From the NCBI GenBank assembly GCA_018817585.1, contig JAHITE010000094.1:1-58959 (forward strand): a stretch of DNA of 58,959 nt, read 5' to 3'. Below are positions 1,728 to 30,920 of the stretch, piece by piece; the first letter of the stretch is position 1; each line of letters opens with the position of its first letter. The notes beneath the pieces are model-generated. The model ran no database searches. It was given only the letters and a program-made list of their open reading frames with translations, and was not told the origin of the DNA. A program made the translations under genes and the position numbers. Origin of the DNA: Candidatus Omnitrophota bacterium (lineage in GTDB: Bacteria; Omnitrophota; Gorgyraeia; B26-G9).

Positions 1728-1741
1728 TTTGCAAGTAGTTG
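1728..1741 (+). repeat. Direct repeat copy 2 (TTTGCAAGTAGTTG)
   Basis: Identical to 1537..1550. Lies in the predicted 5' leader of the giant gene, 45-60 nt before the candidate ATGs. Confidence 0.6.
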
Positions 1742-1785
1742 GGCAAATCTTGGAATTTAGGGGCCAAGATGTAAGCACTCAAAAG

Positions 1786-4700
1786 ATGTTTAGCAGGGGA
1801 AATATGTTTAACTCAGGGAAAAAACACAATATATATTTCAGAGCAATTTCCGCCGTGATTATTCAGGCGTTTTTGCTTAGTGATATTGCTTTTGCCGCTG
1901 GCGGTGATCTGCGCTGGCTGAATAATGATAATTCCCAATCTTCTACTCTGGCTCCTGGTACCGCTATCCCGCAGGGGACTTTTCGTACAAAATTTGATCT
2001 TATTTTAGCACTTGTATCTGCTTTTGAAAAAAAAGATAGCGCTGATTTGCCGCTGGGAATGAACTATATTGATCCAGCGAATTCAATTGTAAAATTTGAA
2101 GGCAAAGATTCAGATCTTTTTATATTTGAGGCAAATAAAGATAATGTTCCATTGGTTTTAAAGAATGCGGCCGATCAAATCAGATTTAATGGATATGTTA
2201 TAGCGACTCTGCCCAAAGAAGTTCAAAAAATTCCGGAAGATTATGTTGAGGTAATAAGTGAAAAAAGCTTTGCTGAAAAGCTTGCGGCTTTAAAAGCTCA
2301 GGGCAAAGACTTTGATCCCCGGGCAGCTTTAGAACTGGTAAAGCAGTCCATACTATTAAATGGATTTACTGGCCAGTCTGAAACTATTGGCGCAAAACAA
2401 TATGCTCCTTGGAAAAAAAATAAATGGGATGTGCAAAAGCAGGCTATTGCTTTAATGACCTCAGGCGTAATTGTGCGCATGCCGACATCAGCAGGTAAAA
2501 CCTTTGTATTCAATGGCGTCAGTGTCTTAAGAAGTTTGGCAAATAAATGGAATCCCAATGCTCTCAAAGAAGTTTCCATTGTTCACACTGAAGAAGGACT
2601 TGTTGAAAGAGACGCCAGAAACGCGGCTCAGGTAAATGCTGATTTCGGGCTTACCACTGGATATGTTGTTTCTCGCGACGGCAGGAGAATTGCTTATTTT
2701 GTTGATGTAAACGGCAATGAGTCTGAATTGCCGGGCGGAGAAAAAGAGCTTTATGCTACAGCTGACATTGTTTATTTAAATATTAGTAATTTTATTTTCC
2801 GTTTTCTGGATGATAATTTTACCGCGCGTTCTGAAGCGGATATGGCATTGAATTGGGGCAAACAGACCTATTTTCTCGCTTTTGATGAAGGAGATGTTCC
2901 TTTAGATATTCGCGCTTTTAATCCGCATACAATTTCCGGAGGAGCTTCGCTTACTGGACAAGGTTTACAGCAGATTTCTGAACAAACCCTTAAAATGCAG
3001 GAAATTATTGATCAAATGATCCAAGGCGAGTTATTGCCGGTCAGCAATGAATTATGCAAAAAAAATGATGATTCTAAAACAGTTAGTCTGACAAAACGCG
3101 GCGAGCAATGGTTAAAAGCTAAATTAAATACAATTAGCGCGTATACTGATAATAAAGATAAAGCTTCAGTATTTGCTGATCAGACTTTATGGCAGGAATT
3201 TACTGAACTCGCTTTATCCGCGTATGTCTATTATCAGAATGGCCAGGATTATATTATCTCAGATGAAAATAAAGTGGTTATCATTGATAAAGATAATAGC
3301 GGTATGCAGATGCAAGGCATGAGCTGGAGTAATGGCTTGGATATTGCTGTGCGGTTAAAAGAACGCCGCAATGGTCTTGATATTGAAATCAAGCCTGATG
3401 CCTTAAATGTTGCGTCCATGATTTTACCGGTAATTTTAAGTAATAAATTAGGTCTTGTTTCCGGAGTCACTGCGGCTTCTGCTACTATTGGAGAAAAAAC
3501 AGCTGATAAGTATGGATTAGAATTTAAAAATCTTAGCGGTTTGGATCAGGTTTCAAAAAGAGTAGAACAGATTATCCTGAGTTCAGATAAACAGGAATCA
3601 ATGCAAAACGCGATTGACGCGCTGGTTGTGATGAAATCAGATCAAAGCGCAACGCGGGAAATGGCTGATTGGGGAATTCCTGATAATGCCGGAGCTGTGC
3701 TTGTGCGCTGCGATAATGAAAATCAGGCAGCTGATTTTACTGATCAGCTTTTACAAAAACAAGCTATGTCCGAGCGGAATATTGTGCGGATTACTCAGGA
3801 TGGGAAGATTACTGACGCCAAAGGCGCTGAAATAGCAAACCTCAGCTTGGCTGATCTTGATTCTTTGCTTGCGGATGATAATGTGGACAATGTTATTATT
3901 GAATTTGTGTCTAAAAATCATGAGTCTGTATTTGGCGGTAAAATGTTAAAAGATAAGGTAGAGGCACTTTCTAAAAACAGTAAGGTTATTATTGTTTCTA
4001 CCAATATAGCAGGCCGCGGAGTTGACTTTAAAGGCGACAGAATGGTGGTTATGTCTTTAAGTGCTGATGCCTCTGAAGAAACAGATATTCAGCTTAGAGG
4101 CCGCAGCGCGCGTGATGGCAGAGAAGGATTCTTTTTTGGTTTTTGGTCGCCGGAAGATTTTAATAATTATAAAAATCTTGTTTCGGAACAATTAGCTTAT
4201 TTAAACAGCAAAGTCAGGGTTGGTAAGCCGCATACATTTATTATGAGCAATGATTCCAAAGCAGCTGATCGCAGCCAAAAAATTATCACGGCCATACGTA
4301 AAAGTATAAATGATAATAAGCAAACCATGGAACAGCAGCAAAAAGCTTTTGGTGAGTTTTTGTGGCAGGAAGCGGACGCGAAAGGGAAAAACCAAGGATT
4401 TGCCCGGGAACATGTAATGTATCGAAGAAGTATAGTTACTCAAGGTTTAAATTCCTTAGGTATTCCTCAGCATATCATTCAATCAATCAGAGAAAAGATC
4501 GCTCAGGCGGTTGAGAATAAAATCACTTTTTTTCTCCAGCCGGAAGAATTTGTAAATGAAATTTTAAGCAAAGAGTTTGGCTTGAGCGATATAGACGCGC
4601 GAACAATTAAGCAGTCTTTAGAGTCAGGAGATTATGATATTGCCCAAGCTGTATTTTCTGTTATCGAAACTGTGCTTAAAAATCGCGCTTTGGAAATTGT

Positions 4701-28700: not shown

Positions 28701-30546
28701 TGCTTTTATTTCTCCGTTTACCGGATACGAGATATCAGTAAGAGCTGGGAATACCAGATGGATAAATGATACATTTACTCATTCAGATGAAAAACGTTTA
28801 GCTTATGAAGAATTAGCATATATTATTTCCCAAAATAAAGGTGAAGTTGATTTAACCATAGATATTGATCTGCAAAAGCAGATAATAAACGCGGTGTATA
28901 AGGAATTAAGTGTAATTTATGTTACTTCAGAGGTTCTTCCTTTTTCTAAATCTGGTGGATTAGCAGAAGTTCTTGGGCAACTACCGCGGGCGATATTAAA
29001 AGAAGGCCATAAACCAGCGGTATTTACTCCGCTGTATAAAACGATTTCTACTAAAGATTTAGAAAAAGTAGATGATTTCGAGATTAATATTGGCAGGGAA
29101 ATCCTGAATACAACTGTTTGGAAAAAGGTGCACAATGGAGTGGAAGTATATTTTATTGATAATAAGTATACAAATTATTTATATGAAGATGATGATCTTA
29201 AAATCGCTTTAATATTGTCAGAAGGGGTGTTGCAGATAATTGATAAAATGGTAAGCAATAAACAACTTAACAGACCTCAGGTTATTAATGCGAATGATTG
29301 GCCTACAGGCTTAATCCCTCTATTCTTACGCACAAAATATAGCGACCATGCTTTATTTAAAGATGTTGTAAGCATCTTTTCAATTCATAATCTTGCTTAT
29401 CAGGGAGGAGAAGCTAATCGGATTCCTTATGAAAGGTTTAAGGAACTGGGCATTTCTGATGAACATTGGTTTGGGGTGATGAACTTTGAAGATACCGGAG
29501 CATTTAATCTGGTTAAAGCAGCTATTCAGCATTCTGATGCGATAGTAACTGTTTCAGAACAATACGCAAAAGAAATCAGAACTAAAGAATTCGGCGAGCG
29601 TATGGAGAATATGCTTGAATTTAGAAAAGATGATCTTTATGGAGTTTTAAATGGTATGGAAATACCTGCGGCGCAGATACTTGACTCAGCTCAAAAACAA
29701 GCAGTCAAAGTCTTATTGCAAAGAGAATTCGGCTTAAAGCAGGATCCCAACGCAATTGTTGTGGCAATGGCAACCCGGGTTACTCAGGAAAAGAATGTTG
29801 ATGGAGCCTTAAATGTGGCTAGAAGAATTTTGTTAGAAAACTCCGAAGTTCAGTTTGTATTTAAAGGCGAAGGGCATAAAGATAATCCATATACTAAACA
29901 AATGCATGAGCAAATGATCGCATTAAACAATGATTTTCCTGGACGAGTTTCTTGTGATGATGAACCAGGTGCTAGACCGAGGCATTCACACATTGCTATA
30001 GCTGGCAGCGATGTTTTGCTTGTCCCTTCGCGTAAAGAACCATGTGGATTAGTGCAGCAGGTTGGTTTATTGCAGGGATCTTTGGTTGTAGTGCATGCTG
30101 TGGGTGGGCTTGCAGATACAGTTAATGAGTTTAATCCCAGGACTGGTCAGGGTAATGGGTTTAGATTTGATAATGTAGATGATGAAAATGATCAGGATTT
30201 TTATCTTGCTGTAAATAGGGCTCTTGCAGTATACCGCAATAAGGATTTAAAAGCTAAAGTTGTGTTTAATGCTCAAACAGAAGACAGAAGCTGGGGAAAA
30301 GCAGCACGTAAATATGCTGAAATTTATATACAGGCATTTTTAAAGAAGAAAAAACAAAACATATCAACTGGAATCACAGAAGCAGAAGCTGAGTTGCCTG
30401 TAGAAGAGACTTTGAAGCCTTTTGCTCCCCAGTCAGACATAATAAAAGATTTGCGCAATCAGATATTGAAAAGTTTGTCAACTGATAGACTGCATGATAG
30501 GGTTGTTCCGGTACAAAGAAATCTATTGCTTGAACAAGCAATATAA
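1786..30546 (+). CDS. Giant multidomain protein (about 9,580-9,605 aa)
   Basis: Continuous open frame 1729..30546 in the supplied track. In-frame ATGs at 1786 (MFSRGN...) and 1804 (MFNSGKKHNIYFRAIS..., AGGGGA at 1795..1800). By analogy with the paralog leaders, 1804 may be the true start. Many independent domain-level motif matches along the frame (listed separately) argue for real coding. Confidence 0.9.
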   Translation: MFSRGNMFNSGKKHNIYFRAISAVIIQAFLLSDIAFAAGGDLRWLNNDNSQSSTLAPGTAIPQGTFRTKFDLILALVSAFEKKDSADLPLGMNYIDPANSIVKFEGKDSDLFIFEANKDNVPLVLKNAADQIRFNGYVIATLPKEVQKIPEDYVEVISEKSFAEKLAALKAQGKDFDPRAALELVKQSILLNGFTGQSETIGAKQYAPWKKNKWDVQKQAIALMTSGVIVRMPTSAGKTFVFNGVSVLRSLANKWNPNALKEVSIVHTEEGLVERDARNAAQVNADFGLTTGYVVSRDGRRIAYFVDVNGNESELPGGEKELYATADIVYLNISNFIFRFLDDNFTARSEADMALNWGKQTYFLAFDEGDVPLDIRAFNPHTISGGASLTGQGLQQISEQTLKMQEIIDQMIQGELLPVSNELCKKNDDSKTVSLTKRGEQWLKAKLNTISAYTDNKDKASVFADQTLWQEFTELALSAYVYYQNGQDYIISDENKVVIIDKDNSGMQMQGMSWSNGLDIAVRLKERRNGLDIEIKPDALNVASMILPVILSNKLGLVSGVTAASATIGEKTADKYGLEFKNLSGLDQVSKRVEQIILSSDKQESMQNAIDALVVMKSDQSATREMADWGIPDNAGAVLVRCDNENQAADFTDQLLQKQAMSERNIVRITQDGKITDAKGAEIANLSLADLDSLLADDNVDNVIIEFVSKNHESVFGGKMLKDKVEALSKNSKVIIVSTNIAGRGVDFKGDRMVVMSLSADASEETDIQLRGRSARDGREGFFFGFWSPEDFNNYKNLVSEQLAYLNSKVRVGKPHTFIMSNDSKAADRSQKIITAIRKSINDNKQTMEQQQKAFGEFLWQEADAKGKNQGFAREHVMYRRSIVTQGLNSLGIPQHIIQSIREKIAQAVENKITFFLQPEEFVNEILSKEFGLSDIDARTIKQSLESGDYDIAQAVFSVIETVLKNRALEIVDQQWTRFLSESEWNKHRLEKISTRSGYEKQFIKPQMIYAEIKRITANIFERTKTVTQEELGKNVIALAFQLAGKDPTSEEMDQAQAAADKINTLSLGQRIKLLTLRIGPAAIAISANIALAVLIGVIFKALSIGGVGSAVGLPVIGSAISLFLSLGPVALAAITIGAVMIGFALNSQVKRLSQVDSSIAKMADAIAIGHRQSLKDIGKTVGLTAWRKTLTVTATFAPFVAAMTLFSYIGSAAFIAGTIGNTVLLASVVLGVVGIISSGLLLFTSRKDLKSAPLMPMTSAKRFFRGGIFGSLVTLGTYAFAFVSSGTFGVPVIIGIVGVGASMLIAKNIFALSSDNIAVKGWITPLGFLAGIAAAAAIVLGIVPLLGVQVIDSIRIAMSTGVMPGGGVLQVVGFLVTALFSLQGIMFFKSQYSTGQKIAKQEVGFDGKAKKSKQTIFTFLAMGRASALQSRMVMITTGSIMGLAVTVGVLILGVKLIAMLPLIALFTVGTFISKVIIRKISTKPTDYSALAKRKVKNFAGIQSQLNTVGLNQFSENIGLIINQFKQEVGNSQNPTSLAYSKLNGMIEKDKLLQTFLIALQSSSPNDGSFFSKAEIKHMIAKIPMEDLNSQQRAAFTKAIIALLVELNLAKVGVNRLFNIAVNPEKLTKALQISVMPFMGATMLASVPTMAAASISQNAQSPYETAKADLPQNTPEIAAYYANLAEQARNERLIEIPDIEQEQALNQFVSKFRIPVLTEYQTNLACEFGAIRENGIRTHKGFDFLVQAGTNIYPTMPGRVVFAGQGTGYGNLVVVEHEVENGISGRIDYFYTLYGHNQSNLVKTGDYVGVNEPIAKAGVTGHASSPDGGCVHFEIKQAEKKINDYYQYIALTALDPEAVLGKDLHLMADISKRNEPILVASIDPSMPLFSLAKNKEPKVIGQAPPPPAKEQVNVSKPAPYSSFAGIIGKKIVLNQLIKGNSWAQAAQKLFGNPHLWATLRDIYARQHPDENVVGTLIINIANGATLEITEELAALLSPEFKATIDPRNAEQIIQPTVHQTVLPIVPEAGSQVTARVWKHTVEPGDCLSKIAQDLLGSHRLWPNFREIYNQQNPNKKIIGTLIFASDTLTLNITDEVAALMTPAARENLNLKPAASGPPPAIAKLTASDTPAAIANPVSNNDDQDQDSFAIRDQVAARAKELMASRAAELAKKKNAETEKIYYSDPAKPTPARNYERGLANAIIKILTNAAEGGHFAVAENPALSDELKTAGNLYFYHKGSEQEIGARDGSLQKLIDADRASNTAKNVADIEIWIGSKYLKDTKGNILRDKRNNPILNELAKPYIPLIDNKPLVYDSLSQLSDVQNLLHFYKFPTQLENRDSFGRGQELTSPSEIRDYQAKGFPLDIWIEGKDVGGQYSYRLNFGTVAANMTLDDVNDYARARVLQLEVVGKILSNLDRESQQQMINDANTKGITPFGAAAIPNIAGKLPENPMMKENPYIGAIVAQRGSNPFEVKTYLQSDNLNQNYIEVYNAQKHISKAERLEKIDKNTNFDNVYYFSKDSAGKLLQRKMHFLSYNRQGKLVEVNARSAHDVIVLETEGAKGDWANCDILWFGKNATNKEILNVSIGTLMHQIAVENAKKTEKQLKRRMVLETALIPLNVMGGFGVGGIIGQLSQPGAQAGIRLIYDSLFTAWEMPTGAKIMGPPSKDTVETFISSYLFFNQGPGKNRPAEQKGLEFITKEDKAGNLTVTDKEFAAYLEKQKKDKKSDLNLWLTMAMDDQASIGFVNYVQGQRKFAIAMFSAGILDNLARLNTESFNAPGNAFRNILASRYFSLTGEVNVLAVIGAIAGNDVLGAGANFGAFKEGWGNFWENYVNFFGVTVDAKAVINSLSTLFTKDKVFEYSPELPKKRAFGLYFLGFPIMTYFDLKNTQGFINSSNSFAFEMESSSNLFDKKWWRDKVTEYTEEDFQKLKLVPLGKVKAEGEKGQPVWRVYYINADTGGIVFLGEKGYASKLKRLEDDVKLFDQFMSLIGEGGGRIEKKSYDAGAVVEANITQPQATKAGERIPDLNQQMLSFSWNTRHSLTNISPSHIYDTKATTNSLNWAFTYDIALQSITLAAGGMPDESDALLNYLTEHKWLYRQGEKDDFNGGVYNSVDLAQISSATQKPIAEFRNNAGNSNWVAAALIKGALQHLKQRFPEPSLNPWQLVLVDQKEEVDQGREDFRKNGDIDKVFAGRGETQWGFLGLRTTKLAAVDQAMNDQEKAYIERAKNIAVSLLALQDKDGGIRHGPTELNIKSTEENINAFGLFSMLYDLTGENKYKDAAKKILEWLPKVYDKQTGVFHRGITDEIVDKIYTTDANALAIIVIGPEILNKLKDRNGYVFDPNGKTAEKIMGLKDNKGTITASEVTVKYKGNDVLGYDYTNADGRANRGAVVSPEMTAHVAKAHKVMFRYYANDPAKQTYHADKAKTLLDNMEKIALRTDLGISFPNSTVPENIKQGEQINRYYDERKKESGQAASDFYTPSLASLNSLWIILADKDVDPFDVRNEKPLAERSAVNGFKGFDQSIINLKERILDLQKQKRTDAKWSKENEQILIAAIDQINQKMQLYTKGMIIPAGQEYNQDILTIIALKAKQTKGIKLNPKEAADLKASESRHPYYQGWDKLSMLSEKRFVINQIKEIKKLESPAKDQKLKELIDKVIKAYYGNGLKSEQQIAVMIEKFAQLLKNSESVEMAAFELVDMLYGQDKLISEDIFKGVYQYLSAEDNSIVTVTLIAPAEAIKAAREKRQEEQTIAAKQYELLEKGGVIITDKSTGRLLEIRAGEGIDVLGQFLDKIKNMVAAEEIDVAAMQKIMKDRWVFTIPANSSEALSVNGKKQDVTVTLVFPYASEYVREEENLRTGEKEVRVFKYGLLDRVITKDKITVMQYNNIEVDVSGTVYENITRRLDKDAPYKPENILLISETAVYDTVFDVEKVSGAVSPVVIKKVLDPDSKAVKYEVYKDYELPVMTFSEKYVTLIEFDKWGREKSSTTYKNTGSIDNPRWNPEKPVLSSEVLPLIGLKDSEGNPVYWDENSKWSSKLVFDHERNKHFIEVRDQNGNLIKKYDGTMSENTQAKPQPLQVIPEQKDQQFEIDARDAQGRAFKVEKETSFYFEYLDEFKTLGVNAAEMNRLGLKGSAMVGDTYLYTIDANGVGSRQKNAEGKELEPVGRSVAQVQRPNEKGISKYFDNKGNVLLQMYAPKQKLVWQQVIDNQGRKVTEYYGYMVDRNNKRVANVQESDLSKLKFIRDKVSYSIYSVDQLNDLKALNIGIYNQLKAEIKKLNIDIESEQFKKDLNAQGKIDLALLGVTCAYDPDTNKPVELMAFSSVEKNADNKFIINGGDVLVISKDMQKKDVSQQVIDGAGRVKIKYDGKFDSLNKRFIREKVTYFYYEYQNRFESYNISAGLAEEMKILGLFGVAMVGETFTYDDNTKQQSAQPIAYSFLRAFENKSYVDEKGNILVQMMNANQHMSRQDLINNQGQTIKRYLGKLINAETKEFERAQASYFFYSTQQLEEFKEQNPDFYKQLVKEYKKVGVDIEAESFKAELNRNGKIGIAIIGATYLYDQNLNKEIKLMSVSRIVKNKQGGYIDEQGNVLVEMKDLINNLHWQELIDSTGRIQVKFDGVVKAGQFVRNQRTYYFYDYASFFAYRQAHPELKVELDAWEAKLPQLGKVNAKEVMDELGRRNIALFGFTFLYDQETDKDTEALAFSFLNVQQNQGNKVEDYFSKAGEISVQNVRFKQQLTWEEIKDNFGRPVKVYDYEKGKDNKYYPNKVTKYHYVYNDTFSKLGITKEVMNQLGRAGFAMVGETYLLKKGTKIEQEKPGSVSVMKPHKNLKGTQLSDYFNNKGEMIVELDNKRDLRVWQEVRDAHGRVTYSYDGEIIDGKFVILNVTRFDYDYSDALFNTVAEKMEKEWIKLGLNKEQKRAELKEAMSRLSKYYMAAVGSTYLYDAENGNEYGINPDNLTDFSILEKFNLNEYGNRDQFKVDLLNNVDIKFLNNVVKKLGINIDAKVIDGLGKAIRKAAQGYVDEKSFITIDSLIEDLNTLKTEFNLKGLNDADLRSIFIELFKNTDYINDDGYVKAMIYNIRNRLLWMGIKDNKGKIQYKYDGYLTKPGQFEWVWVTKVNYYWPEEIENLGAIGIAYNSNTHFYQERIDMDSFASELAAVYFSSKDIKTDIEKLIKVTVKNSKQSDAVLAAIDKISLKGKDEIALNKALRDLLREIIKQTAAPFNIDLGLSANFNIDKLVFEFGNITANSNKDNLMPKIEKFLRENVLDKEYREKLLFVIQQILQDPAMQNKTAKQYQEALLMSIMKSREFAVVTESQIVPFKQKEGKDIYIDEAGNVIFHMFQVRRQLDYQEVKDNRGSIVILFDGKINKDKLAQPLTKHRSEAFERDIMSFSYFENRVLNSMSISNRGEAFFFDEQDLMAKRLANLPVRNIQLSVFEYTQKLRGQEAKDMESIVSLSGGQRKLAEKLSKVVQIEVVKLEQDVQFITPATLAKRIYAQKEKYELNGFTLNSLTKLCSELFGQRFSESWLIPYEEQKGSDLDVFISKDKEGNVLGDIHYQAKERWHSSIFDLDDPRDKVKAIDNDAIQKAFADYRIRLEKAGVEDFSQIIKQIGGEQKLSENFRPLLLESLLKLQKEKAQVSLEYIISTMDGLKGDFGLSALTNTDITILTSSLCTTSANVYYQKEKDNLGRVVKHTWGYVDNTGQFNGTMQFRSQYQTEYGKFGVADITTSFLVEANWTLFNYSKAVNLDQRSGAVDYAVIKTMLPNERGEYFAGELEKKFEDSWYIFRIPLPKTDMIEFFQAGPFNLKYDAAKSVVEDLIGKYRTGRFLTQEDLIYFLTPSLEKNGVDINNSDIKEILISKLFKGMDSKSATIFVDRKSIDDEKQRPNILQMWMEVKNNRGHLDLMFSGYLNMYDEQGVLIKEKRQSLDVGTIEFGKTFVNFLHYNKKRNIGISKGSTLFRFDPNFAIETEYNGVLYRKYKDEGREDLAHTKDLRFETNEQGRVAMLYIVDDVRRSKQSTVGLALRPDGRKVYEIHQGKVGKGELLKGQFTDKVKLYYDLYELPVETKLLYPDGTERLKEKHFVVFIADRIAEQWVFAQRVVETRLDAFLNKLNEFVSGNEIVQPQGETKQFYTRSYAESEKEAERNGAYFENGIEMYQRKDKFNPVVWRDYQATGAVDAFKEYLDIQILKHATNNLFTNVFVEGRERGVFMPLLVVVGTTTVLITLGLPAALLAASWFLSLFVKVTGRKRKAWKVPVAASGDGTPDDADKPPVEPSVVVAGSGPRTAPDATFVGSKNIDSSIRNRMSIMIPQIGVIGQFTKYISDLYEEGGFLEADPILKKGMEDAFIQRFYPDWDGREATRPQRTEEVWSGYLTQYGIELTEIEKLVIEPVMYILYYATSQDSRRLDNWTAGQTRTGKGNKWDKADGAINWDTKTNPFVKFGHIYQKQEEKELVVDYIGSLLSEQNIVLTDEDKGFLITKLFNKKDSSIIDPKKIKTILVDRFGALDDLTIQNIVDKVIVRYGGREKMLLVGDRDFRRYFEYCEQDGIDPFTGEALRPGAIANQELDFRGFIPVARKMIVSQSADSQKTFYEKVKNRDQYLLDPMRKLLAEKYKQDNFRPYEFPQAFAKGDVKRTILTWGLVLGGIALSGYFLFVGGMAATALWVFPIYSLFSWQLVEMMPMLVFFYRHKMGGWMTVLRAKTRAQYEGFKPRRDMANDLRAQLGLSVTQAKKAVNILTKGYFKNDFATQDELNEFIAKTIRKYKKDFRIIDFNQATLLSFTKNLNQDKTTRDRLQGKYRFWTVLFTCWGLNFALLSGASLYYAAGTIPAIGYVIGIGVLLLNSVVSLRSWWSLLNEAVTLNMEKQGKWREFSSYEQIKPIHLQQIAVDPYLKDVFNTVLVDETLLHYTLITEQEVQLLKDALVNGTALPKLENPRAQRKVIEFFNKINLYSADEFEEMKEFMLKNPDKLLKVITKNTGMGQLGTPLRSGFDDKKTAQIKTPFRTVKDTFTGDWIIYLKSLARNLDAVQQKEFVTKLKNPLLTYEQTLSIMLNEYGILPLGYNAEGMPFTTLMTQAVFEAKSKQEMLNELNRELNHIAIPDLTFLMKHLGISLDPAIAKPKLADYKNTLNKHFSAMSDSDLENLLKELMLNRQIIHQFMIYRVDSYQKTVRTAHHASIVGYKVFLKHALDLDHEPTEAEIVKYFRSIFSYMKVLMGNGRSHGDIMWEDLKELGWESASYTDGKPDHHLKSWADFDSSPEANIQQSNWGFKVDNWTMALRYVDDPDAVIFNTDWEHTIFPTDAFLLPFVAYEFTKREDLGLLLTDLRQADEGMTPTAKDQTMAEDVWNIRIIPAETRFGTPAMYGPLIIRLPAMRDFGTPASKIEDTYTGQEVLKSGYKSDFTPAISMGRGREKTQAGMPGFVNRFGGLTLENTLSTHYQQFLKSKFVHWTEKLTLMFNDDHYVNQVLIPRYNLTIFLFAFFVSFTPFAFLAIPLFFVCAQYIFAQAITAGGVRKMTKEFGVWKGYGLYLQRFWSLVFTFLSLISNDAQKTSDALGGNSGVFVGGMKDVKHPSDRFGSVGDDKSIYGKFRESTKWGVILAGILLVAPLHPWGVAAQYFFYVLPFAFIWGPFLHNALYGRDSFRGKVQWDYFKTKKAAFDNLKGKRKFGDYVDMIFALPVLNLAPVTGFFYGLISIPYFIFVDILWVNIFNRFIINPAGKLFRNLNFKTITAKTFGITGISIQYKDLTESFVNDLELRFNISGASDSRFSPNGNRAERLAQIFNEAMLYLESTVVQDTVLNDYLQDLLVKQDNRAPPMVVRVNSALPVNAARYYNPKQGCVEIILNELFTRELIAAYDVYPQAVLTIIAERLFHELAHNNTVGTDAQEREETKQILLRDIALHQLVIKSGNQAFVDDYFANSNPTFKSGYYFKAVIQDQLIPVLNDTAEFDKRVKAYLDNTLHQIHSEPLKGMADQNIIINSPEKLAQAYDINWESTTAMVKAGKAPAAPLKNFKHEKSDVSIIVSAPDFPQAMRDALSNIAEELKGIFKGLAITDNEMIHATIFVLGDNYPITPDMANKISDILKDIGPLKIRVKGLNMSSNGNIFAQCYVEDEKFYKLLKKLDWGFPDETRGSRILHISLARISEGISSDEFKQLYDKVAQLRNFDFGQVVIKTPELIEVLDRWGFAVGRSYTFFVDDLLSDNLQTGRALKDEYITKLDGLRQSGSIKPADKSQLNFEMTEKQQQLYLQAIKEVLAERKEETITPAILFEAADRATKDYKSTLKARVCLQPGTMNPLHYGQITASLAGILGQVSEEDKDKEVLTLLANGGTVPDKPYAASAKIRNEMAKQAIKDPDLEEWLEVTPIRGQVVNMFMSDPYALEKTGKNRAARRFNMDMAGFIWLFASNPEVDWIYLVGSDKVAGYGKKNEKGLIVDTLSKARVKVVYFSRTGEEIDYERDIEPYEWMNALEKQGFFVKSEVSSFADLSATKIRKALISGADNVDNIPLAASVPQQVIDYIKPNSLAGRTLIFLYDLENREKQADEQVTAGILQRALFAYEQAIKDIEKEQQKNDIAADILAKLHDKISEKVEKLKANILIQNQNALMIESDIFINDLNELSEKYFNKPKLTKDKYDTARAMAYEVNRRLSSRDGIKAFGRNHRQGLNPEVIDLEYDRYNRVLEGVIQILNRHEYPNVFVNSWGYDPVIRERNLAKLNEQFTKLFFVNIVKGMRKILARTGFIANASPAARIIINDLRILKEDEIEKMTARELADNIIKPLIDTPVGLSIFEDMQEKFMLYSAAPGTGKGALIENTFNPVKKGVGYPGLVNKLMLYHTRDPHNENTGRLSEKDGLAYHFRTQAELETLERQGRIETAWVNKQLQGLASKDFEETVVLNKEDINIQDSRQTLLDSDLIIEERENQYIVKRKIRGSQAVFDGNKPVVLEGGYGWFLSLKDRYPDITVAFISPFTGYEISVRAGNTRWINDTFTHSDEKRLAYEELAYIISQNKGEVDLTIDIDLQKQIINAVYKELSVIYVTSEVLPFSKSGGLAEVLGQLPRAILKEGHKPAVFTPLYKTISTKDLEKVDDFEINIGREILNTTVWKKVHNGVEVYFIDNKYTNYLYEDDDLKIALILSEGVLQIIDKMVSNKQLNRPQVINANDWPTGLIPLFLRTKYSDHALFKDVVSIFSIHNLAYQGGEANRIPYERFKELGISDEHWFGVMNFEDTGAFNLVKAAIQHSDAIVTVSEQYAKEIRTKEFGERMENMLEFRKDDLYGVLNGMEIPAAQILDSAQKQAVKVLLQREFGLKQDPNAIVVAMATRVTQEKNVDGALNVARRILLENSEVQFVFKGEGHKDNPYTKQMHEQMIALNNDFPGRVSCDDEPGARPRHSHIAIAGSDVLLVPSRKEPCGLVQQVGLLQGSLVVVHAVGGLADTVNEFNPRTGQGNGFRFDNVDDENDQDFYLAVNRALAVYRNKDLKAKVVFNAQTEDRSWGKAARKYAEIYIQAFLKKKKQNISTGITEAEAELPVEETLKPFAPQSDIIKDLRNQILKSLSTDRLHDRVVPVQRNLLLEQAI
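1837..1905 (+). other. Conserved Sec-type leader / signal-anchor of the giant protein
   Basis: FRAISAVIIQAFLLSDIAFAAGG follows the basic stretch KKHNIY. Same motif at 31099..31161, 35699..35764 and 38279..38344. AxA-like cleavage context (AFA|AG). Confidence 0.7.
2390..4160 (+). other. SecA-like DEAD-motor ATPase domain (within giant ORF)
   Basis: WDVQKQAIALMTSGVIVRMPTSAGKTF (Walker A, nt 2479..2505). YFLAFDEGDVPLDIRAFNPHTISGG (compare SecA [22 protein letters not shown]). QDYIISDENKVVIIDKDNSGMQMQGMSWSNGLDIAV (compare [34 protein letters not shown]). VSTNIAGRGVDF (compare IATNMAGRGTDI). IQLRGRSARDGREGFFFGFWSPED (compare [24 protein letters not shown]). E. coli SecA motifs recalled from memory. 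Confidence 0.8.
4980..6230 (+). other. Polytopic membrane block (roughly a dozen hydrophobic helices)
   Basis: Long run of G/A/I/L/V-rich 20-aa segments separated by short basic loops (LRIGPAAIAISANIALAVLIGVIF ... MLPLIALFTVGTFISKVIIRK). Confidence 0.65.
6955..7300 (+). other. Peptidase M23 (LytM-type) domain
   Basis: HKGFD (HxxxD, nt 7000..7014). GTNIYPTMPGRVVFAG, YGNLVVVEH, TLYGHNQSNLVKTGDYV. The terminal HxH motif reads CVHFE (Cys codon 7273..7275). Confidence 0.75.
7570..8070 (+). other. Two tandem LysM-like repeats
   Basis: HTVEPGDCLSKIAQDLLGSHRLWPNFREIYNQQNPNKKIIGTLIFASDTLTLNITDEVAALMTP and a more degenerate upstream copy NQLIKGNSWAQAAQKLFGNPHLWATLRDIYARQHPDENVVGTLIINIANGATLEITEELAALLSP. 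A Pro-rich linker precedes them. Confidence 0.5.
10890..12310 (+). other. (alpha/alpha) toroid domain with QW-like motif, homologous to the C-terminus of ORF 47440..49386
   Basis: NWAFTYDIALQS vs DVGFTYDQALSA. LLALQDKDGGIRHGP...TEENINAFGLF...YKDAAKKILEWL...FHRGITDE...TDANALAIIVIGPE vs LLELQNRNKDGSLPGGP...TEQNIAAYMFF...YALAARKVYKWL...FNRGTDDR...TDTVALSIMAFGPQ. Confidence 0.55.
13700..19950 (+). repeat. Array of at least 10 divergent 120-150-aa protein repeat modules (protein-level only)
   Basis: Recurrent anchor D.(K/Q)GN(V/I)L(V/L).M.......L.WQ(E/Q)(V/I).D..GR....(Y/F)DG. Examples: WQQVIDNQGRKVTEYYG, SQQVIDGAGRVKIKYDG, WQELIDSTGRIQVKFDG, WEEIKDNFGRPVKVYDY, WQEVRDAHGRVTYSYDG, WMGIKDNKGKIQYKYDG, YQEVKDNRGSIVILFDG. 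Each is followed by (V/T)(T/S)YF(Y/F)Y.Y, a helical stretch, and A(M/I)(V/I)G(E/D/A)T(Y/F)(L/T)YD. Confidence 0.7.
21700..24970 (+). other. GT48 (FKS / callose synthase)-like beta-1,3-glucan synthase module flanked by TM clusters
   Basis: Core at nt 23959..24117 IEDTYTGQEVLKSGYKSDFTPAISMGRGREKTQAGMPGFVNRFGGLTLENTLS. It aligns without gaps to the yeast Fks1 segment [53 protein letters not shown] (recalled from memory), matching at ED.Y.G, G, G.GR(D/E), F, G, E, LS. Upstream VIFNTDWEH...VAYEF vs IQLIDANQDNY...LAEF. Downstream LGGNSGVFVGG and FAFIWGPFLHN vs IGGARYISTGRGF and FAPFVFNPHQF. TM clusters at about 21715..22380 and 24215..24960, as in FKS topology. Confidence 0.55.
25860..26400 (+). 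other. 2H phosphoesterase (LigT / cyclic phosphodiesterase-like) domain
   Basis: Two H-x-(T/S)-x motifs 78 residues apart: MIHATIFVLG (His codon 25987) and ILHISLARI (His codon 26221). Confidence 0.5.
26520..27380 (+). other. NadD-like (HxGH-family) nucleotidyltransferase module, giant-protein copy
   Basis: LQPGTMNPLHYGQI (HxGH motif with the last His replaced by Gln, codon 26713..26715). LLANGGTVPDKPYAAS, RRFNMDMAGFIWLF, YLVGSDKVAGYGKKNEKG. SSFADLSATKIRKAL (ISSTxIR-like). Confidence 0.65.
27600..28900 (+). other. Guanylate-kinase-like module (tail segment followed by P-loop head)
   Basis: Tail 27628..27995: ESDIFINDLNEL...YEVNRRL...YDRYNRVLEGVIQIL...WGYDP...FTKLFF. Head 28198..28800: LYSAAPGTGKGALIENTF, LMLYHTRDPH...SEKDGLAYHFRTQAELETLERQGRIETAWVNKQLQGLA, VVLEGGYGWFLSLKDRYPDITVAFISPF. 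Confidence 0.55.
28905..30345 (+). other. GT5 glycogen/starch synthase (GlgA-like) domain at the C-terminus of the giant protein
   Basis: VIYVTSEVLPFSKSGGLAEVLGQLPRAILKEGHKPAVFTPLY (KxGGL motif at nt 28948..28962). INANDWPTGLIPLFL. VPSRKEPCGLVQQVGLLQGSLVVVHAVGGLADTV (compare PSRFEPCGL...GGLxDTV). Confidence 0.8.
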
Positions 30547-30560: not shown

Positions 30561-30920
30561 ATGGATCAAGATAGACGTAATAGCGCAAGGAAGCAAGCTA
30601 AAGATACTTCAATAAGTCTGCGCCCGCTTGACCCGCAAGTCTGGTTTAGGTTTTGGAATGGCGCGGAATGTTCAATGCGCGATATTAGTATGGTTGGAGC
30701 AGGAGTTGTCTCCAGAGAAATGATTCCGATTGGATCACCTTTGAGCATGGATCTACGTTTGAGTAAAACCAATAGTATGATCCGTATTTTTGGTAAAGTA
30801 GAATGGGTTTCTGAGCACGATGGTTTATACCGAACAGGAGTTAGTTTTTCTTGGTGGAAAGATGATCAGGATAAAAATACTGTTAGCCAATGTTTGGAAA
30901 GATTAGCGAATTTAAACTAG
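30561..30920 (+). CDS. Stand-alone PilZ-domain protein (putative c-di-GMP receptor)
   Basis: RBS AAGGAG at 30548..30553; ATG 14 nt after the giant ORF stop. RRNSAR (RxxxR) and DISMVGAG (DxSxxG). Paralog at 52772..53140. Confidence 0.8.
   Translation: MDQDRRNSARKQAKDTSISLRPLDPQVWFRFWNGAECSMRDISMVGAGVVSREMIPIGSPLSMDLRLSKTNSMIRIFGKVEWVSEHDGLYRTGVSFSWWKDDQDKNTVSQCLERLANLN

What the first reader, a model, noticed from the sequence alone, without database searches (positions are those of the whole stretch)
1729..30546. One uninterrupted 28.8-kb ORF encoding a roughly 9,600-residue mosaic protein
The + frame opening at 1729 has no stop for 9,605 codons, in AT-rich DNA where other frames close after tens of codons (see the short shadow ORFs in the track). 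Along it I can read a Sec-type leader, a SecA-like motor, a membrane block of roughly a dozen helices, an M23 peptidase, LysM-like repeats and an (alpha/alpha) toroid. These are followed by at least ten repeat modules and a second membrane block around a GT48-like domain. The C-terminal part holds 2H phosphoesterase, NadD-like, guanylate-kinase-like and GT5 glycogen-synthase domains. To my knowledge, wall-lytic, polysaccharide-synthetic, translocation-motor and nucleotide-metabolic modules are not known together in one polypeptide. Giant ORFs of this general style have been reported from Omnitrophota and linked to cell-cell attack or attachment. The function here is unknown.
Basis: partly seen in the sequence, partly recalled or inferred. 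Interest (0 to 1): 0.9.

Follow-up and report, generated by a model that had tools for sequence, protein, structure and literature searches.

The report
Omnitrophota giant SecA-headed multi-enzyme membrane protein
The 28.8-kb reading frame is a real single gene for a ~9,600-residue membrane protein of an Omnitrophota bacterium, a smaller member of the already described class of giant proteins thought to help these tiny bacteria attack or feed on other cells, so it is a good example rather than a new kind of thing.

Summary
Observation confirmed. Window 1729..30546 (+) is open for 9,605 codons, and the likely start is ATG 1804. The coding signal is in frame in every sliding window. Collinear homologues from independent Omnitrophota assemblies cover most of its length.

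- Confirmed: signal-peptide-like leader, SecA-like ATPase, 10-11-helix membrane block, M23 peptidase, ten repeat modules, second membrane block, 2H phosphoesterase, NadD-like, guanylate-kinase-like and GT5 glycogen-synthase domains.
- Only weakly supported: LysM-like repeats and the GH76-like toroid.
- Not supported by any statistical test: the GT48-like call.

The claim that such a combination is unknown is wrong. SecA-headed, membrane-anchored, multi-enzyme long proteins with GT5/GT1, peptidase and glycosidase domains, a ~1,500-aa beta-hairpin array and downstream PilZ and sugar-import genes are already described for Omnitrophota.

New details:
- The N-terminal 1,700-aa head is conserved while the cargo behind it is swapped between genomes.
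- The leader is shared with two neighbouring genes.
- An HExxH module recurs across these proteins.
- Three NadD-like paralogues lie in the locus.

Topology, processing and function remain unresolved. This is a new member of a known kind, of moderate interest.

The parts
1729..30546 (+). Giant ORF: 9,605 codons from TTG 1729, with the probable start at ATG 1804 (~9,580 aa)
1577..1605 (+). Sigma-70-like promoter candidate (TTGACC, 17 nt, TG-TATACT). This is a consensus match only.
1804..1908 (+). Conserved signal-peptide-like leader (aa 26-60): K/R-rich start, IIQAFLLSDIAF core and an AFA|AGG AxA site. The giant homologues and two downstream genes share it.
1804..6858 (+). Conserved 'head' module (aa 26-1710): leader, SecA-like ATPase, helical linker and first membrane block. 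It is 38-52% identical to giant ORFs in L001, L002 and L003, whose downstream parts are unrelated.
2272..4218 (+). SecA-like ATPase (aa ~182-830): NBD1 with MPTSAGKT and DEGD, a preprotein cross-linking domain, and NBD2 with TNIAGRGVDF / RGRSARDG. No scaffold/wing domain was detected.
5005..6219 (+). Membrane block 1 (aa 1093-1497): 10-11 hydrophobic helices arranged as hairpins. The turns are short and uncharged; the long loops are K/R-rich.
   Evidence: no SecY match
6961..7332 (+). M23 (LytM-type) peptidase domain (aa ~1745-1868). H1758xxxD, H1815 and H1851 are present, but the HxH motif reads C1849-V-H1851.
7540..8106 (+). Two tandem ~72-aa LysM-like copies (aa ~1938-2012 and 2052-2126, 37% identical). 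Support is marginal.
   Evidence: no Pfam hit
10966..12318 (+). Helical region of putative (alpha/alpha)-toroid type (aa ~3080-3530), with a partial Glyco_hydro_76 hit at aa 3223-3326
13747..18048 (+). Repeat array (aa ~4007-5440): ten copies of an ~81-aa core at a ~116-164-aa period. The unit model has six beta strands (three hairpins) plus a helix pair. There is no DNA-level tandem repeat.
19336..24948 (+). Second conserved module (aa ~5870-7740) holding membrane block 2 (helices between aa 6236 and 7736) and large loops. It is collinear with P0002, L005/L006, P0009, P0013, P0019 and P0021.
23581..24228 (+). Most conserved loop of module 2 (aa 7285-7500). Its invariant motifs are NxDxxH, (I)ED, GRxRE and NRFGGL.
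25279..25698 (+). HExxH module (aa 7851-7990, ERLFHELAH plus a downstream EE). It recurs in 28 copies among related long proteins and has no Pfam family.
25708..26406 (+). 2H phosphoesterase-like domain (aa ~7994-8226) with H8087-A-T and H8165-I-S
26422..27597 (+). NadD-like / cytidylyltransferase-like domain (aa ~8232-8623). It carries PLHYGQ in place of HxGH, and LSATKIR. It is 55% identical to the domain in gene 31066-35340.
27598..28038 (+). Recurrent module of unknown function (aa ~8624-8770)
28042..28896 (+). Guanylate-kinase-like P-loop domain (aa ~8772-9056, SAAPGTGKGA)
28906..30345 (+). GT5 glycogen/starch-synthase domain (aa 9060-9539) with KSGGL, EPCGL and GGLADTV
30561..30920 (+). 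PilZ-domain gene (119 aa) directly downstream. The same position is held by a PilZ gene in L008.
31066..35340 (+). 1,424-aa protein: the same leader, a NadD-like domain with intact HYGH, and two copies of (GK-like + unknown module). It is a paralogue of the giant's tail and 51% identical to the L008 neighbour.
35663..38212 (+). 849-aa protein (probable start ATG 35672, = P0011): the same leader, HEAT repeats and a NadD-like C-terminal half
39206..45505 (+). Sugar-uptake and glycosidase neighbours: MFS_2 transporter (39206-40648) and two GH2-type TIM-barrel proteins (40740-42632, 44231-45505)
47434..52418 (+). PilZ-domain protein (47434-49386) and a prepilin-type N-methylation-motif protein (51741-52418)

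Best explanation
**What it is.** This is one genuine gene of an Omnitrophota bacterium. It encodes a ~9,580-residue membrane protein with a signal-peptide-like leader and many transmembrane helices. It is of the same kind as the SecA-bearing, multi-enzyme ('Archaeovorin-type') long proteins already described for that phylum.

**Four evolutionary modules (shown):**
1. A conserved head (aa 26-1710): leader, SecA-like ATPase without scaffold/wing, and a 10-11-helix membrane block.
2. A variable, wall-directed cargo: M23 peptidase, two LysM-like copies, a GH76-like helical toroid, and a ~1,400-aa array of ten beta-hairpin/helix-pair repeats.
3. A second conserved membrane module (aa ~5870-7990) with a strongly conserved acidic-motif loop and an HExxH module.
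4. An enzyme tail: 2H phosphoesterase, NadD-like nucleotidyltransferase, an unknown module, a guanylate-kinase-like P-loop domain, and a GlgA-type alpha-glucan synthase.

**How it most likely works (inferred, not shown):**
- The head sits in the inner membrane.
- Its SecA-like motor uses ATP to thread the long cargo behind it to the cell surface, and perhaps also the two leader-bearing neighbour proteins.
- On the surface, the repeat array gives reach or adhesion.
- The M23, LysM and toroid domains bind and cut the wall polymers of a host or prey cell.
- Released sugars enter through the adjacent MFS transporter and GH2-type glycosidases.
- The tail enzymes, on the cytoplasmic side of membrane block 2, activate and polymerise the sugars into an alpha-glucan.
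- The adjacent PilZ proteins suggest c-di-GMP control.

**Confidence.** About 0.85 that it is a real single gene of this known class. About 0.3 for the export-and-feed mechanism as stated.
For: **Reality of the gene:**
- The frame is open and the coding signal is in frame throughout.
- Homologous ORFs in L001 and L003 stay open for more than 5,000 codons.
- Collinear homologues exist from independent assemblies: P0002, L005/L006, and P0003/L008, which reaches the same C-terminus at 63% identity.

**Taxon:**
- Apart from P0002 (a bin labelled Candidatus Cloacimonas) and L001 (labelled PVC group), every named homologue comes from a Candidatus Omnitrophota MAG.

**Domains:**
- Pfam, NCBIfam and PDB hits, plus motifs.
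- Transitive annotation through 139 homologues found by the exhaustive search.
- Repeats, with a confident unit model at pLDDT 87.5.

**Match to the known class** (descriptions read):
- SecA_DEAD + PPXD without scaffold/wing.
- Many transmembrane helices.
- GT5/GT1, peptidase and glycosidase-like domains.
- A ~1,500-aa antiparallel beta array with external helix pairs.
- Downstream PilZ and carbohydrate-import genes. Here these are PilZ at 30561 and 47434, MFS_2 at 39206 and GH2-like genes.
- Nielsen & Lui report PF08323 in 153 long proteins, a SecA_DEAD architecture cluster, and 39% of long proteins in the signal-peptide-plus-TM class.

**Modularity:**
- Head homology stops at aa ~1710.
- The L003 relative carries an SLT lytic transglycosylase instead of M23.
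Against: **Topology is unresolved.**
- The leader looks like a cleavable Sec signal, with an AxA site conserved in six sequences. That would put the ATP-dependent SecA-like domain outside the cytoplasm.
- By the positive-inside rule, all long loops flanking both membrane blocks are K/R-rich and the short turns are uncharged. This suggests hairpin anchors with every large soluble part on one face, which conflicts with a wall-directed M23/LysM region.

**Active sites are imperfect.**
- The M23 domain has C-V-H in place of HxH.
- The NadD-like domain has HYGQ in place of HxGH.

**Fit to the class is incomplete.**
- No methyltransferase or NUDIX domain was found, though West-Roberts et al. list both as typical of Archaeovorins.
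- The protein is below the size cut-offs of both surveys.
- No type II secretion genes are visible in the 1.7 kb upstream of the gene.

**Other gaps.**
- No expression or proteomic data were available.
- The stretch aa 1710-4376 has no homologue from another assembly, so a join there is not independently checked.
Confidence: 0.6

Rival explanations
1. Polyprotein reading. The ORF is translated as one chain but is then cut into separate working pieces: head, wall-lytic piece, repeat fibre, membrane module and tail enzymes. The cutting would be done by embedded or partner proteases, possibly the recurrent HExxH module at aa 7851-7990.
For: - The same modules (HExxH, 2H, NadD-like, GK-like, unknown module, GlgA) occur in different orders and copy numbers in other long proteins, and as stand-alone proteins of 180-360 aa.
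- The neighbour gene 31066-35340 is a free-standing version of the tail modules.
- The HExxH module keeps HEL[GSA]H in nearly all of its 28 copies and often directly precedes an enzyme module.
- West-Roberts et al. propose proteolytic processing of giant proteins.
Against: - No C39 or S8 protease domain, the candidates named in the literature, is present.
- The HExxH module has no family assignment, and protease activity is only a guess.
- No cleavage-site pattern was identified.
- Published proteomics on a related giant protein was too sparse to show fragments.
Confidence: 0.2
2. Cytoplasmic-face scaffold reading. [quoted passage not shown] The wall-type domains would be non-catalytic, or act only after cell lysis or delivery.
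For: - Loops of 24-45 aa with 6-9 K/R alternate with turns of 0-7 uncharged residues in block 1.
- The segments after block 1, after the first hairpin of block 2 and after block 2 are all K/R-rich.
- The ATP- or nucleotide-dependent domains (SecA-like, NadD-like, GK-like, GlgA) need a cytoplasm.
- M23 lacks one catalytic His.
- Nielsen & Lui treat cytoplasmic-face anchoring as the dominant reading for long proteins with TM helices but no signal peptide.
Against: - The N-terminus looks like a cleavable signal peptide with a conserved AxA site.
- M23, LysM-like and, in the L003 relative, SLT domains are wall-directed in all characterised cases.
- My helix boundaries were drawn by hand from a hydropathy scan, so the helix count is uncertain.
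Confidence: 0.2
3. Dedicated secretion-engine reading. The head (SecA-like motor plus membrane block) is a private export machine that recognises the special conserved leader. It exports in cis its own cargo, and in trans the two leader-bearing neighbour proteins, delivering nucleotide-dependent enzymes into a host or prey cell where ATP is available.
For: - The leader motif (IQAFL..DI.WA.G followed by S.LAP..I..G) occurs only at the N-termini of the giant ORFs of four genomes, the two downstream genes, the L008 neighbour and P0008.
- The head is conserved while the cargo is swapped.
- The preprotein cross-linking domain is retained.
- Leader-bearing proteins carry NadD-like and GK-like domains, which make little sense in a periplasm.
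- The gene order giant, PilZ, leader protein is conserved in L008.
Against: - The membrane block shows no similarity to SecY or any solved channel.
- A motor that carries its own signal peptide is paradoxical.
- There is no evidence for delivery into another cell.
- The sample of leader-bearing proteins is small and comes from close relatives.
Confidence: 0.15
4. Artefact reading. The long frame is produced by mis-assembly (a chimeric join of several organisms or loci) or by an error that removed stops between adjacent genes.
For: - The window is probably metagenome-derived.
- GC content varies from 0.33 to 0.42 along the ORF.
- aa 1710-4376 has no collinear homologue from another assembly.
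- The modules are known to shuffle.
Against: - There are no stops in 9,605 codons, while the other frames have 7-13 stops per 100 codons. The in-frame codon-usage signal holds in 127 of 127 windows.
- Four separate stretches, including most module junctions, are collinear with ORFs from independent assemblies.
- Relatives in 206-kb and 708-kb contigs also run for more than 5,000 codons.
- ORFs over 20 kb are common in this phylum.
Confidence: 0.03

Closest known systems
Archaeovorin-type giant proteins of Omnitrophota (West-Roberts et al. 2023, bioRxiv 10.1101/2023.11.21.568195; type protein from Velamenicoccus archaeovorus)
   Same: - Same phylum.
- SecA_DEAD plus preprotein-binding domain without scaffold/wing.
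- Many transmembrane helices.
- GT5 and GT1 domains, a peptidase and a glycosidase-like helical barrel.
- A ~1,400-1,500-aa array of beta hairpins with external helix pairs.
- Downstream PilZ and sugar-import genes.

   Different: - Only ~9,600 aa, against their cut-off of more than 30,000 aa.
- No methyltransferase, NUDIX, C39 or S8 domain detected.
- The SecA-like domain is at the very N-terminus, directly behind a signal-like leader.
- No type II secretion locus is visible in the short upstream flank.
'Multi-enzyme metabolic cluster' long proteins with signal peptide plus TM helices, and the PF07517 architecture cluster (Nielsen & Lui 2026, bioRxiv 10.64898/2026.06.07.730766)
   Same: - Many different Pfam families tile one polypeptide.
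- A starch synthase (PF08323) plus GT1 sugar module.
- A signal peptide plus transmembrane helices.
- Protein-level repeats without DNA-level tandem repeats.

   Different: - Just below their 10,000-aa catalogue limit.
- The tail here is nucleotide-type (2H, NadD-like, GK-like), not the phosphoglucomutase, ROK-kinase or radical-SAM content they list.
Canonical SecA and the accessory SecA2/SecY2 export system of Gram-positive bacteria (my own knowledge)
   Same: - NBD1-PPXD-NBD2 order with intact Walker A/B and arginine-finger motifs.
- Like the accessory system, a SecA-type motor is associated with glycosyltransferases and with very large surface proteins that carry an unusual conserved leader.
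   Different: - No helical scaffold, wing or C-terminal domain was detected.
- The motor is covalently fused to a membrane block and to its presumed cargo.
- The membrane block shows no SecY similarity.
- The motor itself sits behind a signal-like leader.
Rhs / YD-repeat and teneurin beta-hairpin shells
   Same: - Repeats built of consecutive beta hairpins with YD-like motifs (Y.DE.GN, D..GR....YDG).
- Rhs and teneurin structures appear among the weak Foldseek hits.

   Different: - No significant structural match: best E 0.06, TM-score 0.33 or lower.
- Each unit carries a C-terminal helix pair.
- No Rhs core or toxin domain.
M23/LytM peptidases and their degenerate activator relatives (LytM, ShyA, EnvC, NlpD)
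   Same: - Full-length M23 domain.
- The zinc ligands H-x-x-x-D and the final His are present, as is the His of the YGHNQS motif.

   Different: - The first His of HxH is Cys.
- The best-scoring structures are the catalytically dead EnvC type, yet EnvC lacks the ligands that this domain keeps.
- The domain is embedded about 1,750 aa into a giant chain.
GT48 beta-1,3-glucan synthase (fungal FKS1, Pfam PF02364)
   Same: - A large conserved loop between transmembrane helices, followed by further helices.
- By eye, a few collinear short motifs: ED.Y.G, G[KR]GR[DE], and PF..N after a transmembrane helix.

   Different: - No Pfam or PDB hit even at E 10.
- The catalytic-region profile-profile score equals the shuffle mean.
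- With a 7-sequence profile the score lies within the shuffle range.

Membership tests
Omnitrophota Archaeovorin-type / multi-enzyme long proteins | Encoded in an Omnitrophota genome | tested here: met
   The closest head homologues are in Candidatus Omnitrophota MAGs (plus one labelled PVC group), at 38-52% identity. All named tail and module-2 homologues looked up are from Omnitrophota MAGs; P0002, from a bin labelled Candidatus Cloacimonas, is the one exception.
Omnitrophota Archaeovorin-type / multi-enzyme long proteins | Survey size cut-off (>30,000 aa in West-Roberts et al.; >=10,000 aa in Nielsen & Lui). This is an operational threshold, not a structural feature. | tested here: not met
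   9,605 codons, or ~9,580 aa from ATG 1804. The protein is the same kind by architecture and homology, but would not have been catalogued by either survey.
Omnitrophota Archaeovorin-type / multi-enzyme long proteins | SecA DEAD and preprotein-binding domains without the scaffold/wing domain | tested here: met
   PF07517, PF01043 and PF00271 were found. No SecA_SW hit appeared even at E 5.
Omnitrophota Archaeovorin-type / multi-enzyme long proteins | Numerous transmembrane helices | tested here: met
   Two blocks, with about 10-11 and about 10-14 hydrophobic segments.
Omnitrophota Archaeovorin-type / multi-enzyme long proteins | Glycosyltransferase (GT5/GT1), glycoside-hydrolase-like and peptidase domains | tested here: met
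   PF08323 at 1e-59, PF00534 at 3e-11, PF01551 at 2e-19, and PF03663 partial at about the gathering score.
Omnitrophota Archaeovorin-type / multi-enzyme long proteins | Methyltransferase and NUDIX domains, listed as consistent content by West-Roberts et al. | tested here: not met
   Neither was found by Pfam or NCBIfam in any tile. Some homologous long proteins do carry NUDIX.
Omnitrophota Archaeovorin-type / multi-enzyme long proteins | ~1,500-aa antiparallel beta array with external paired helices | tested here: inconclusive
   Ten repeats span ~1,430 aa. The unit model (pLDDT 87.5) has three beta hairpins plus two helices. The assembled array was not modelled, and no direct comparison with the published model was possible.
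Omnitrophota Archaeovorin-type / multi-enzyme long proteins | Conserved neighbourhood: PilZ and carbohydrate import downstream, a type II secretion-like locus upstream | tested here: inconclusive
   Downstream there are PilZ genes (30561, 47434), MFS_2, GH2-like genes and a pseudopilin. Only 1.7 kb lies upstream, holding an HATPase_c gene, so the secretion locus cannot be seen.
Canonical SecA translocase | NBD1-PPXD-NBD2 with Walker A, Walker B and arginine-finger motifs | tested here: met
   MPTSAGKT, FDEGD, TNIAGRGVDF and RGRSARDG. SecA equivalog models match at E 6e-28, but far below their cut-off (97 vs 814 bits).
Canonical SecA translocase | Helical scaffold, helical wing and C-terminal domains | tested here: not met
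   No PF07516 hit. The SecA models match only their first ~390 of 814 positions, plus the helicase C motif region.
Peptidase M23 | HxxxD and HxH zinc/catalytic motifs | tested here: inconclusive
   H1758-KGF-D1762 and H1815 are present, but HxH reads C1849-V-H1851. The domain score is well above the Pfam cut-off (70 vs 28.7 bits).
GT5 glycogen/starch synthase (GlgA) | Full-length two-domain GT-B fold with KxGGL and the catalytic Glu motif | tested here: met
   aa 9060-9539 align to residues 2-478 of E. coli-type GlgA structures at E 5e-46. KSGGL, EPCGL and GGLADTV are present. TIGR02095 scores 328.0 bits against a cut-off of 328.45.
GT48 beta-1,3-glucan synthase | Significant similarity to the Glucan_synthase (PF02364) catalytic region | tested here: not met
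   - No Pfam hit at E 5-10 for long or short tiles.
- No PDB hit at E 10 for the single sequence or for 2- and 7-sequence profiles.
- hhalign against 15 true FKS sequences: the whole region scores 27-34 against shuffles of 20 +/- 4 (max 34); the catalytic sub-region scores 14.4 against a shuffle mean of 14.4.
- The structure model was unusable, at pLDDT 36.7.
2H phosphoesterase superfamily | Two HxT/S motifs about 80 residues apart in a LigT-like domain | tested here: met
   H8087-A-T and H8165-I-S. PF13563 at E 0.004 and TIGR02258 at E 0.02, both below cut-off. The domain also finds a bona fide LigT_PEase protein, P0139, in the exhaustive search.
Cytidylyltransferase-like / NadD-like nucleotidyltransferases | (H/T)xGH and ISxTxxR motifs | tested here: inconclusive
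   PLHYGQ (last His replaced by Gln) and LSATKIR. There is no direct Pfam hit, but stand-alone homologues P0024, P0030 and P0035 hit PF01467 above its cut-off. The paralogue in gene 31066 has intact HYGH.
Guanylate-kinase-like P-loop kinases | P-loop GxxGxGK[ST] and similarity to the guanylate kinase fold | tested here: inconclusive
   A variant P-loop, AAPGTGKGA. TIGR03263 at E 0.005, far below its cut-off. Homologues P0087 and P0121 hit PF00625 above its cut-off.
LysM peptidoglycan-binding domain | Significant match to LysM profiles or structures | tested here: inconclusive
   No Pfam hit at E 10. The two-copy profile ranks a LysM protein (9g8s_T) first of 177,635 PDB sequences, but at E 0.16.
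SecY-type protein-conducting channel (considered for membrane block 1) | Sequence similarity to SecY/Sec61 | tested here: not met
   A 4-sequence profile of aa 1050-1520 against PDB at E 10 found only chance hits to small membrane proteins.

The most novel reading that the evidence does not exclude
The conserved 1,700-aa head is a self-contained, dedicated export engine: a SecA-derived motor fused to its own membrane block. It recognises a special conserved leader, carried by the giant protein itself and by the two neighbouring proteins. It moves interchangeable cargo, including nucleotide-dependent enzymes, out of the cell and possibly into a host or prey cell. That would be a new secretion route with cargo fused in cis, and it would explain how these bacteria export chains of 10,000 to 100,000 residues.
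Probability: 0.12. Interest if true: 0.8.

Novelty: new member of a known kind. Interest (0 to 1): 0.4.

Why it matters
Giant proteins take up a large share of the very small genomes of Omnitrophota and are thought to underlie their predatory or episymbiotic life. Nobody knows how they are exported, whether they are cut into pieces, or what the 'cytoplasmic-type' enzymes in them do.

This 9.6-kaa example is small enough to be handled experimentally and still holds the defining parts. The dissection here gives concrete handles for experiments:
- a conserved head with swappable cargo;
- a leader shared with two neighbour genes;
- a recurrent HExxH module;
- a conserved acidic-motif loop in the second membrane module;
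- a tail that also exists as a free-standing paralogue next door.

As a finding, however, it adds a member to a described class, not a new kind of system.

Tried and rejected
1. **Oversized homology queries.** A 5,000-aa query timed out. I then used 1,500-1,900-aa pieces.
2. **BLASTP self-comparison.** It reported no internal repeats. Tiled phmmer and an iterated HMM did find them, so the BLAST negative was discarded.
3. **GT48 homology.** By eye and from memory of FKS1, I saw collinear motifs in aa 7290-7700. I then fetched real FKS sequences and tested the idea by hmmsearch, hhalign with shuffles, Pfam on short tiles and PDB profile searches. The signal was not distinguishable from shuffled controls, so I rejected it as unproven.
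4. **Structure of aa 6822-7760.** AlphaFold2 with a 2-sequence alignment gave pLDDT 36.7 and was not used.
5. **Membrane block 1 as a SecY-like channel.** No support.
6. **Overlapping three-repeat windows as a pseudo-alignment.** MAFFT simply aligned the identical overlaps. I replaced this with an alignment of ten single units.
7. **L004 (Undibacterium).** The scan returned it as a relative, but it is only a canonical secA next to a separate M23 gene. Discarded.
8. **Structured RNAs and DNA repeats.** No Rfam family anywhere in the window, and no meaningful DNA tandem repeats in the ORF.
9. **Foldseek of the repeat unit against PDB.** No significant match.
Full report
**1. The observation**

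The window holds one ORF from 1729 to 30546 on the + strand. It has 9,605 codons, a single terminal stop and no ambiguous bases. The other two + frames across the same DNA carry 6.75 and 12.8 stops per 100 codons. With this base composition, a random stop-free run of that length has a probability near 1e-325.

A codon-usage log-odds score trained on the 14 other genes of the window is highest in the ORF's own frame in all 127 sliding windows of 150 codons. No segment looks like a spacer, a frame switch or foreign non-coding DNA.

The most likely start is ATG 1804. It is preceded by GGGGA, and it gives an N-terminus that lines up with the N-termini of homologues. A good sigma-70-type match lies at 1577-1605.

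**2. Domain inventory**

Coordinates below are residues counted from TTG 1729.

Significant Pfam, NCBIfam and PDB sequence hits:
- SecA_DEAD at 182-464, SecA_PP_bind at 444-541 and Helicase_C at 744-797.
- Peptidase_M23 at 1757-1862.
- A partial Glyco_hydro_76 match at 3223-3326, at about the gathering score.
- Glyco_transf_5 plus Glycos_transf_1 at 9062-9484. This region aligns end to end with GlgA structures.

Catalytic motifs:
- The SecA-like ATPase is intact: MPTSAGKT, DEGD, TNIAGRGVDF, RGRSARDG.
- GlgA is intact: KSGGL, EPCGL, GGLADTV.
- M23 keeps HxxxD, the YGHNQS His and the last His, but its HxH motif reads Cys-Val-His.
- No SecA scaffold/wing domain is detectable.

Hydropathy shows two membrane blocks, at aa 1093-1497 (10-11 helices) and aa 6236-7736.

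**3. Repeats**

Tiled phmmer and an iterated HMM find ten copies of an ~81-residue core between aa 4062 and 5392. The period is about 116-164 residues. There is no tandem repeat at the DNA level.

An AlphaFold2 model of one unit, using the ten units as the alignment, is confident (pLDDT 87.5, pTM 0.73). It shows three beta hairpins followed by a pair of helices. Foldseek against PDB finds nothing significant; Rhs, teneurin and OspA-type beta structures are among the weak hits.

This matches the description by West-Roberts et al. of a ~1,500-aa antiparallel beta array with external paired helices that shares some features with Rhs proteins.

**4. The C-terminal enzymes**

Direct hits for these domains are below threshold: 2_5_RNA_ligase2 at E 0.004 and guanylate kinase at E 0.005.

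An exhaustive HMMER search with aa 7860-9059 found 139 relatives and resolves five sub-modules. Stand-alone relatives of three of them hit Pfam families:
- LigT_PEase (P0139, 1e-28).
- CTP_transf_like (P0024, P0030, P0035).
- Guanylate_kin (P0087, P0121).

The expected motifs are present, with some substitutions:
- HAT and HIS, 78 residues apart, for the 2H domain.
- PLHYGQ and LSATKIR for the NadD-like domain.
- AAPGTGKGA for the guanylate-kinase-like domain.

So the 2H, NadD-like and guanylate-kinase-like calls stand, with the note that the NadD-like HxGH motif is degenerate in the giant.

**5. Calls that are weak or fail**

*LysM-like.* Two tandem ~72-aa copies exist (aa ~1938-2126, 37% identical). 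Their profile ranks a LysM protein first in PDB, but only at E 0.16, and Pfam is silent.

*GT48-like.* There is no Pfam or PDB hit at E up to 10, for the single sequence or for 2- and 7-sequence profiles.

I retrieved genuine beta-1,3-glucan synthases and ran profile-profile comparisons with column-shuffled controls:
- The whole region scores 27-34, against 20 +/- 4 (max 34) for shuffles.
- The soluble 'catalytic' part scores exactly the shuffle mean.

A structure model of the region was unusable (pLDDT 36.7).

The region is nevertheless a strongly conserved module. In seven sequences it has invariant NxDxxH, ED, GRxRE and NRFGGL motifs. Its function is unknown. An enzymatic, possibly glycosyl-transfer, role is only a guess.

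**6. Relatives and modularity**

*Head.* A scan of one genome per species found homologous ORFs in two Candidatus Omnitrophota MAGs and one 'PVC group' MAG. In the two long contigs the ORF stays open for more than 5,000 codons to the end of the fetched DNA. Similarity to the window protein covers only aa ~15-1710 (38-52% identity) and then stops completely.

The head (leader, SecA-like ATPase, membrane block 1) is therefore a conserved unit, and what follows is exchangeable. The L003 relative carries an SLT lytic transglycosylase where the window has M23.

*Second conserved unit.* aa ~5870-7990 is collinear with these sequences:
- P0002, which lacks the 2H domain.
- A giant ORF of at least 5,941 codons in two metagenome contigs (L005/L006).
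- Several partial Omnitrophota ORFs.

*Tail.* The tail from aa 8036 to the very C-terminus is 63% identical to P0003. P0003 is the 3' part of a contig-truncated giant ORF.

*Shuffling and taxon.* Other relatives carry the same modules in other orders and copy numbers. Every named relative is from Candidatus Omnitrophota, except P0002 (a bin labelled Candidatus Cloacimonas) and L001 (labelled PVC group).

These collinear matches from independent assemblies argue strongly against a chimeric assembly. The exception is aa 1710-4376, where I had no searches left to look for a bridging homologue.

**7. Neighbourhood**

- Directly downstream lies a 119-aa PilZ gene at 30561-30920.
- Next is a 1,424-aa protein, and then an 849-aa protein. 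Both begin with the same leader as the giant.
- The 1,424-aa protein is a free-standing version of the giant's tail: a NadD-like domain that is 55% identical and has intact HYGH, then two GK-like units.
- The 849-aa protein has HEAT repeats and another NadD-like domain.
- The order giant, PilZ, leader protein is conserved in L008.
- Further downstream are an MFS_2 sugar transporter, two GH2-type TIM-barrel proteins, another PilZ protein and a prepilin-type protein.

West-Roberts et al. report conserved PilZ and carbohydrate-import genes downstream of Omnitrophota giant genes.

**8. Comparison with what is known**

- Seymour et al. 2023 report ORFs longer than 20 kb as common across Omnitrophota classes.
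- West-Roberts et al. 2023 define Archaeovorin-type giant proteins. Their features are many transmembrane helices, a divergent SecA DEAD plus preprotein-binding domain lacking scaffold and wing, GT5/GT1, glycosidase and peptidase domains, and the beta array. The authors propose self-export and prey-wall degradation.
- Nielsen & Lui 2026 catalogue 916 long proteins. They find PF08323 in 153 of them, a SecA_DEAD architecture cluster, 39% with a signal peptide plus TM helices, and protein repeats without DNA tandems.

The window protein fits this class in taxon, head, membrane anchoring, enzyme content, repeat array and neighbourhood. It differs in three ways:
- It is just below both size cut-offs.
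- It lacks detectable methyltransferase and NUDIX domains.
- Its tail is of nucleotide type.

I rate the finding as a new member of a known kind.

**9. How it may work**

*Shown:* the domain order, the intact ATPase and GlgA motifs, the modular conservation, and the neighbourhood.

*Inferred:*
- The head's SecA-like motor drives export of the long wall-directed cargo.
- The repeat array provides reach or adhesion.
- M23, the LysM-like copies and the toroid bind and cut wall polymers.
- The MFS transporter and the GH2-type enzymes import and trim sugars.
- The tail activates and polymerises them.
- The PilZ proteins add c-di-GMP control.

*The main obstacle is topology.* The leader has the n-h-c layout of a Sec signal and an AxA site conserved in six sequences. 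That would place the ATPase outside the cytoplasm.

Against this, all long loops flanking the helix hairpins of both membrane blocks are K/R-rich and the short turns are uncharged. By the positive-inside rule, that puts all large soluble parts on one face.

The same paradox, 'cytoplasmic' enzymes predicted to lie outside, is noted in both preprints.

*Rival readings:* processing into pieces, a cytoplasmic-face scaffold, and a dedicated secretion engine for leader-bearing effectors. Each explains part of the data and none is excluded.

**10. Verdict**

The novelty claim is overstated.
- The object is ordinary for its phylum. It is still an informative, experimentally tractable example of an unsolved class.
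- Interest is 0.4.

Noticed in passing
window 1804-1908, 31066-31170, 35672-35780; also L001 ~10000-10190, L002 ~3710-3910, L003 ~10000-10190, L008 ~5364-5560: A conserved ~35-60-aa leader sits at the N-terminus of the giant ORFs of four genomes, of the two downstream window genes, of the L008 neighbour and of P0008. Its layout is a K/R-rich start, then [FV][RK].[IV]S..[IL][IV]Q[AS]FL..[DN]I.[FW]A, an AxA-type site, then S.LAP..I..G. A regex scan of all fetched DNA found it nowhere else. It precedes proteins made of nucleotide-dependent enzyme domains.
   Followed up: partly
window 30561-30920 (+): A 119-aa PilZ-domain gene (Pfam E 1.3e-8) lies in the 520-nt gap right after the giant ORF. A 118-aa PilZ gene holds the same position after the homologous giant ORF in L008.
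   Followed up: yes
window 26422-27597, 31300-32430, ~36880-38130: There are three NadD-like (cytidylyltransferase-like) paralogues in one locus. The giant's copy has HYGQ, and the 1,424-aa protein's copy has intact HYGH (55% identical). The third is in the C-terminal half of the 849-aa HEAT protein. That protein is probably P0011 with its start at ATG 35672, not GTG 35663.
   Followed up: partly
window 25279-25698 (aa 7851-7990): This ~130-aa module holds the only HExxH of the protein, plus a conserved acidic pair downstream. It has no Pfam family. It recurs in 28 copies among related long proteins, sometimes twice per protein, and usually sits directly in front of a GK-like or 2H module. It also follows membrane block 2 in L005 and P0002. 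It could be a small zincin-type protease or a metal-binding adaptor.
   Followed up: partly
L003 ~17300-17600 (aa 2444-2537 of its giant ORF): The closest head homologue (52% identical over aa 26-1706) carries an SLT lytic transglycosylase in its unrelated cargo. The window has M23 at that point instead. The enzyme differs but the target polymer is the same.
   Followed up: partly
window 23581-24228 (aa 7285-7500): A loop between transmembrane helices has residues invariant across seven long proteins: NxDxxH, ED, GRxRE, NRFGGL and HWTEK. It has no match in Pfam or PDB and looks like an uncharacterised active site.
   Followed up: partly
L004 9392-13347: In Undibacterium sp. TS12, an ordinary M23 peptidase gene lies directly upstream of the canonical secA. 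The locus was pulled in only because both halves resemble parts of the query, and it is not a relative of the giant gene.
   Followed up: yes
P0002 (NCBI, bin labelled Candidatus Cloacimonas sp. 4484_209): A 2,457-aa partial ORF fills a 7.4-kb contig and is 38-50% identical and collinear with giant aa 5922-8622. All other relatives are from Omnitrophota, so this contig is probably mis-binned.
   Followed up: no
window 15-1418 (+): The gene upstream of the giant ORF encodes a 467-aa protein with a histidine-kinase-type HATPase_c domain. Nielsen & Lui list this domain among the commonest content of Omnitrophota long proteins.
   Followed up: no
L007 (Logan assembly of SRR6514274, 6.1-kb contig): An independent short-read assembly holds DNA that encodes proteins identical to window genes 35663-38212, 39206-40648 and the start of 40740-42632. 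The same or a nearly identical strain is therefore present in that public run, which could be used for read mapping across the giant ORF.
   Followed up: no
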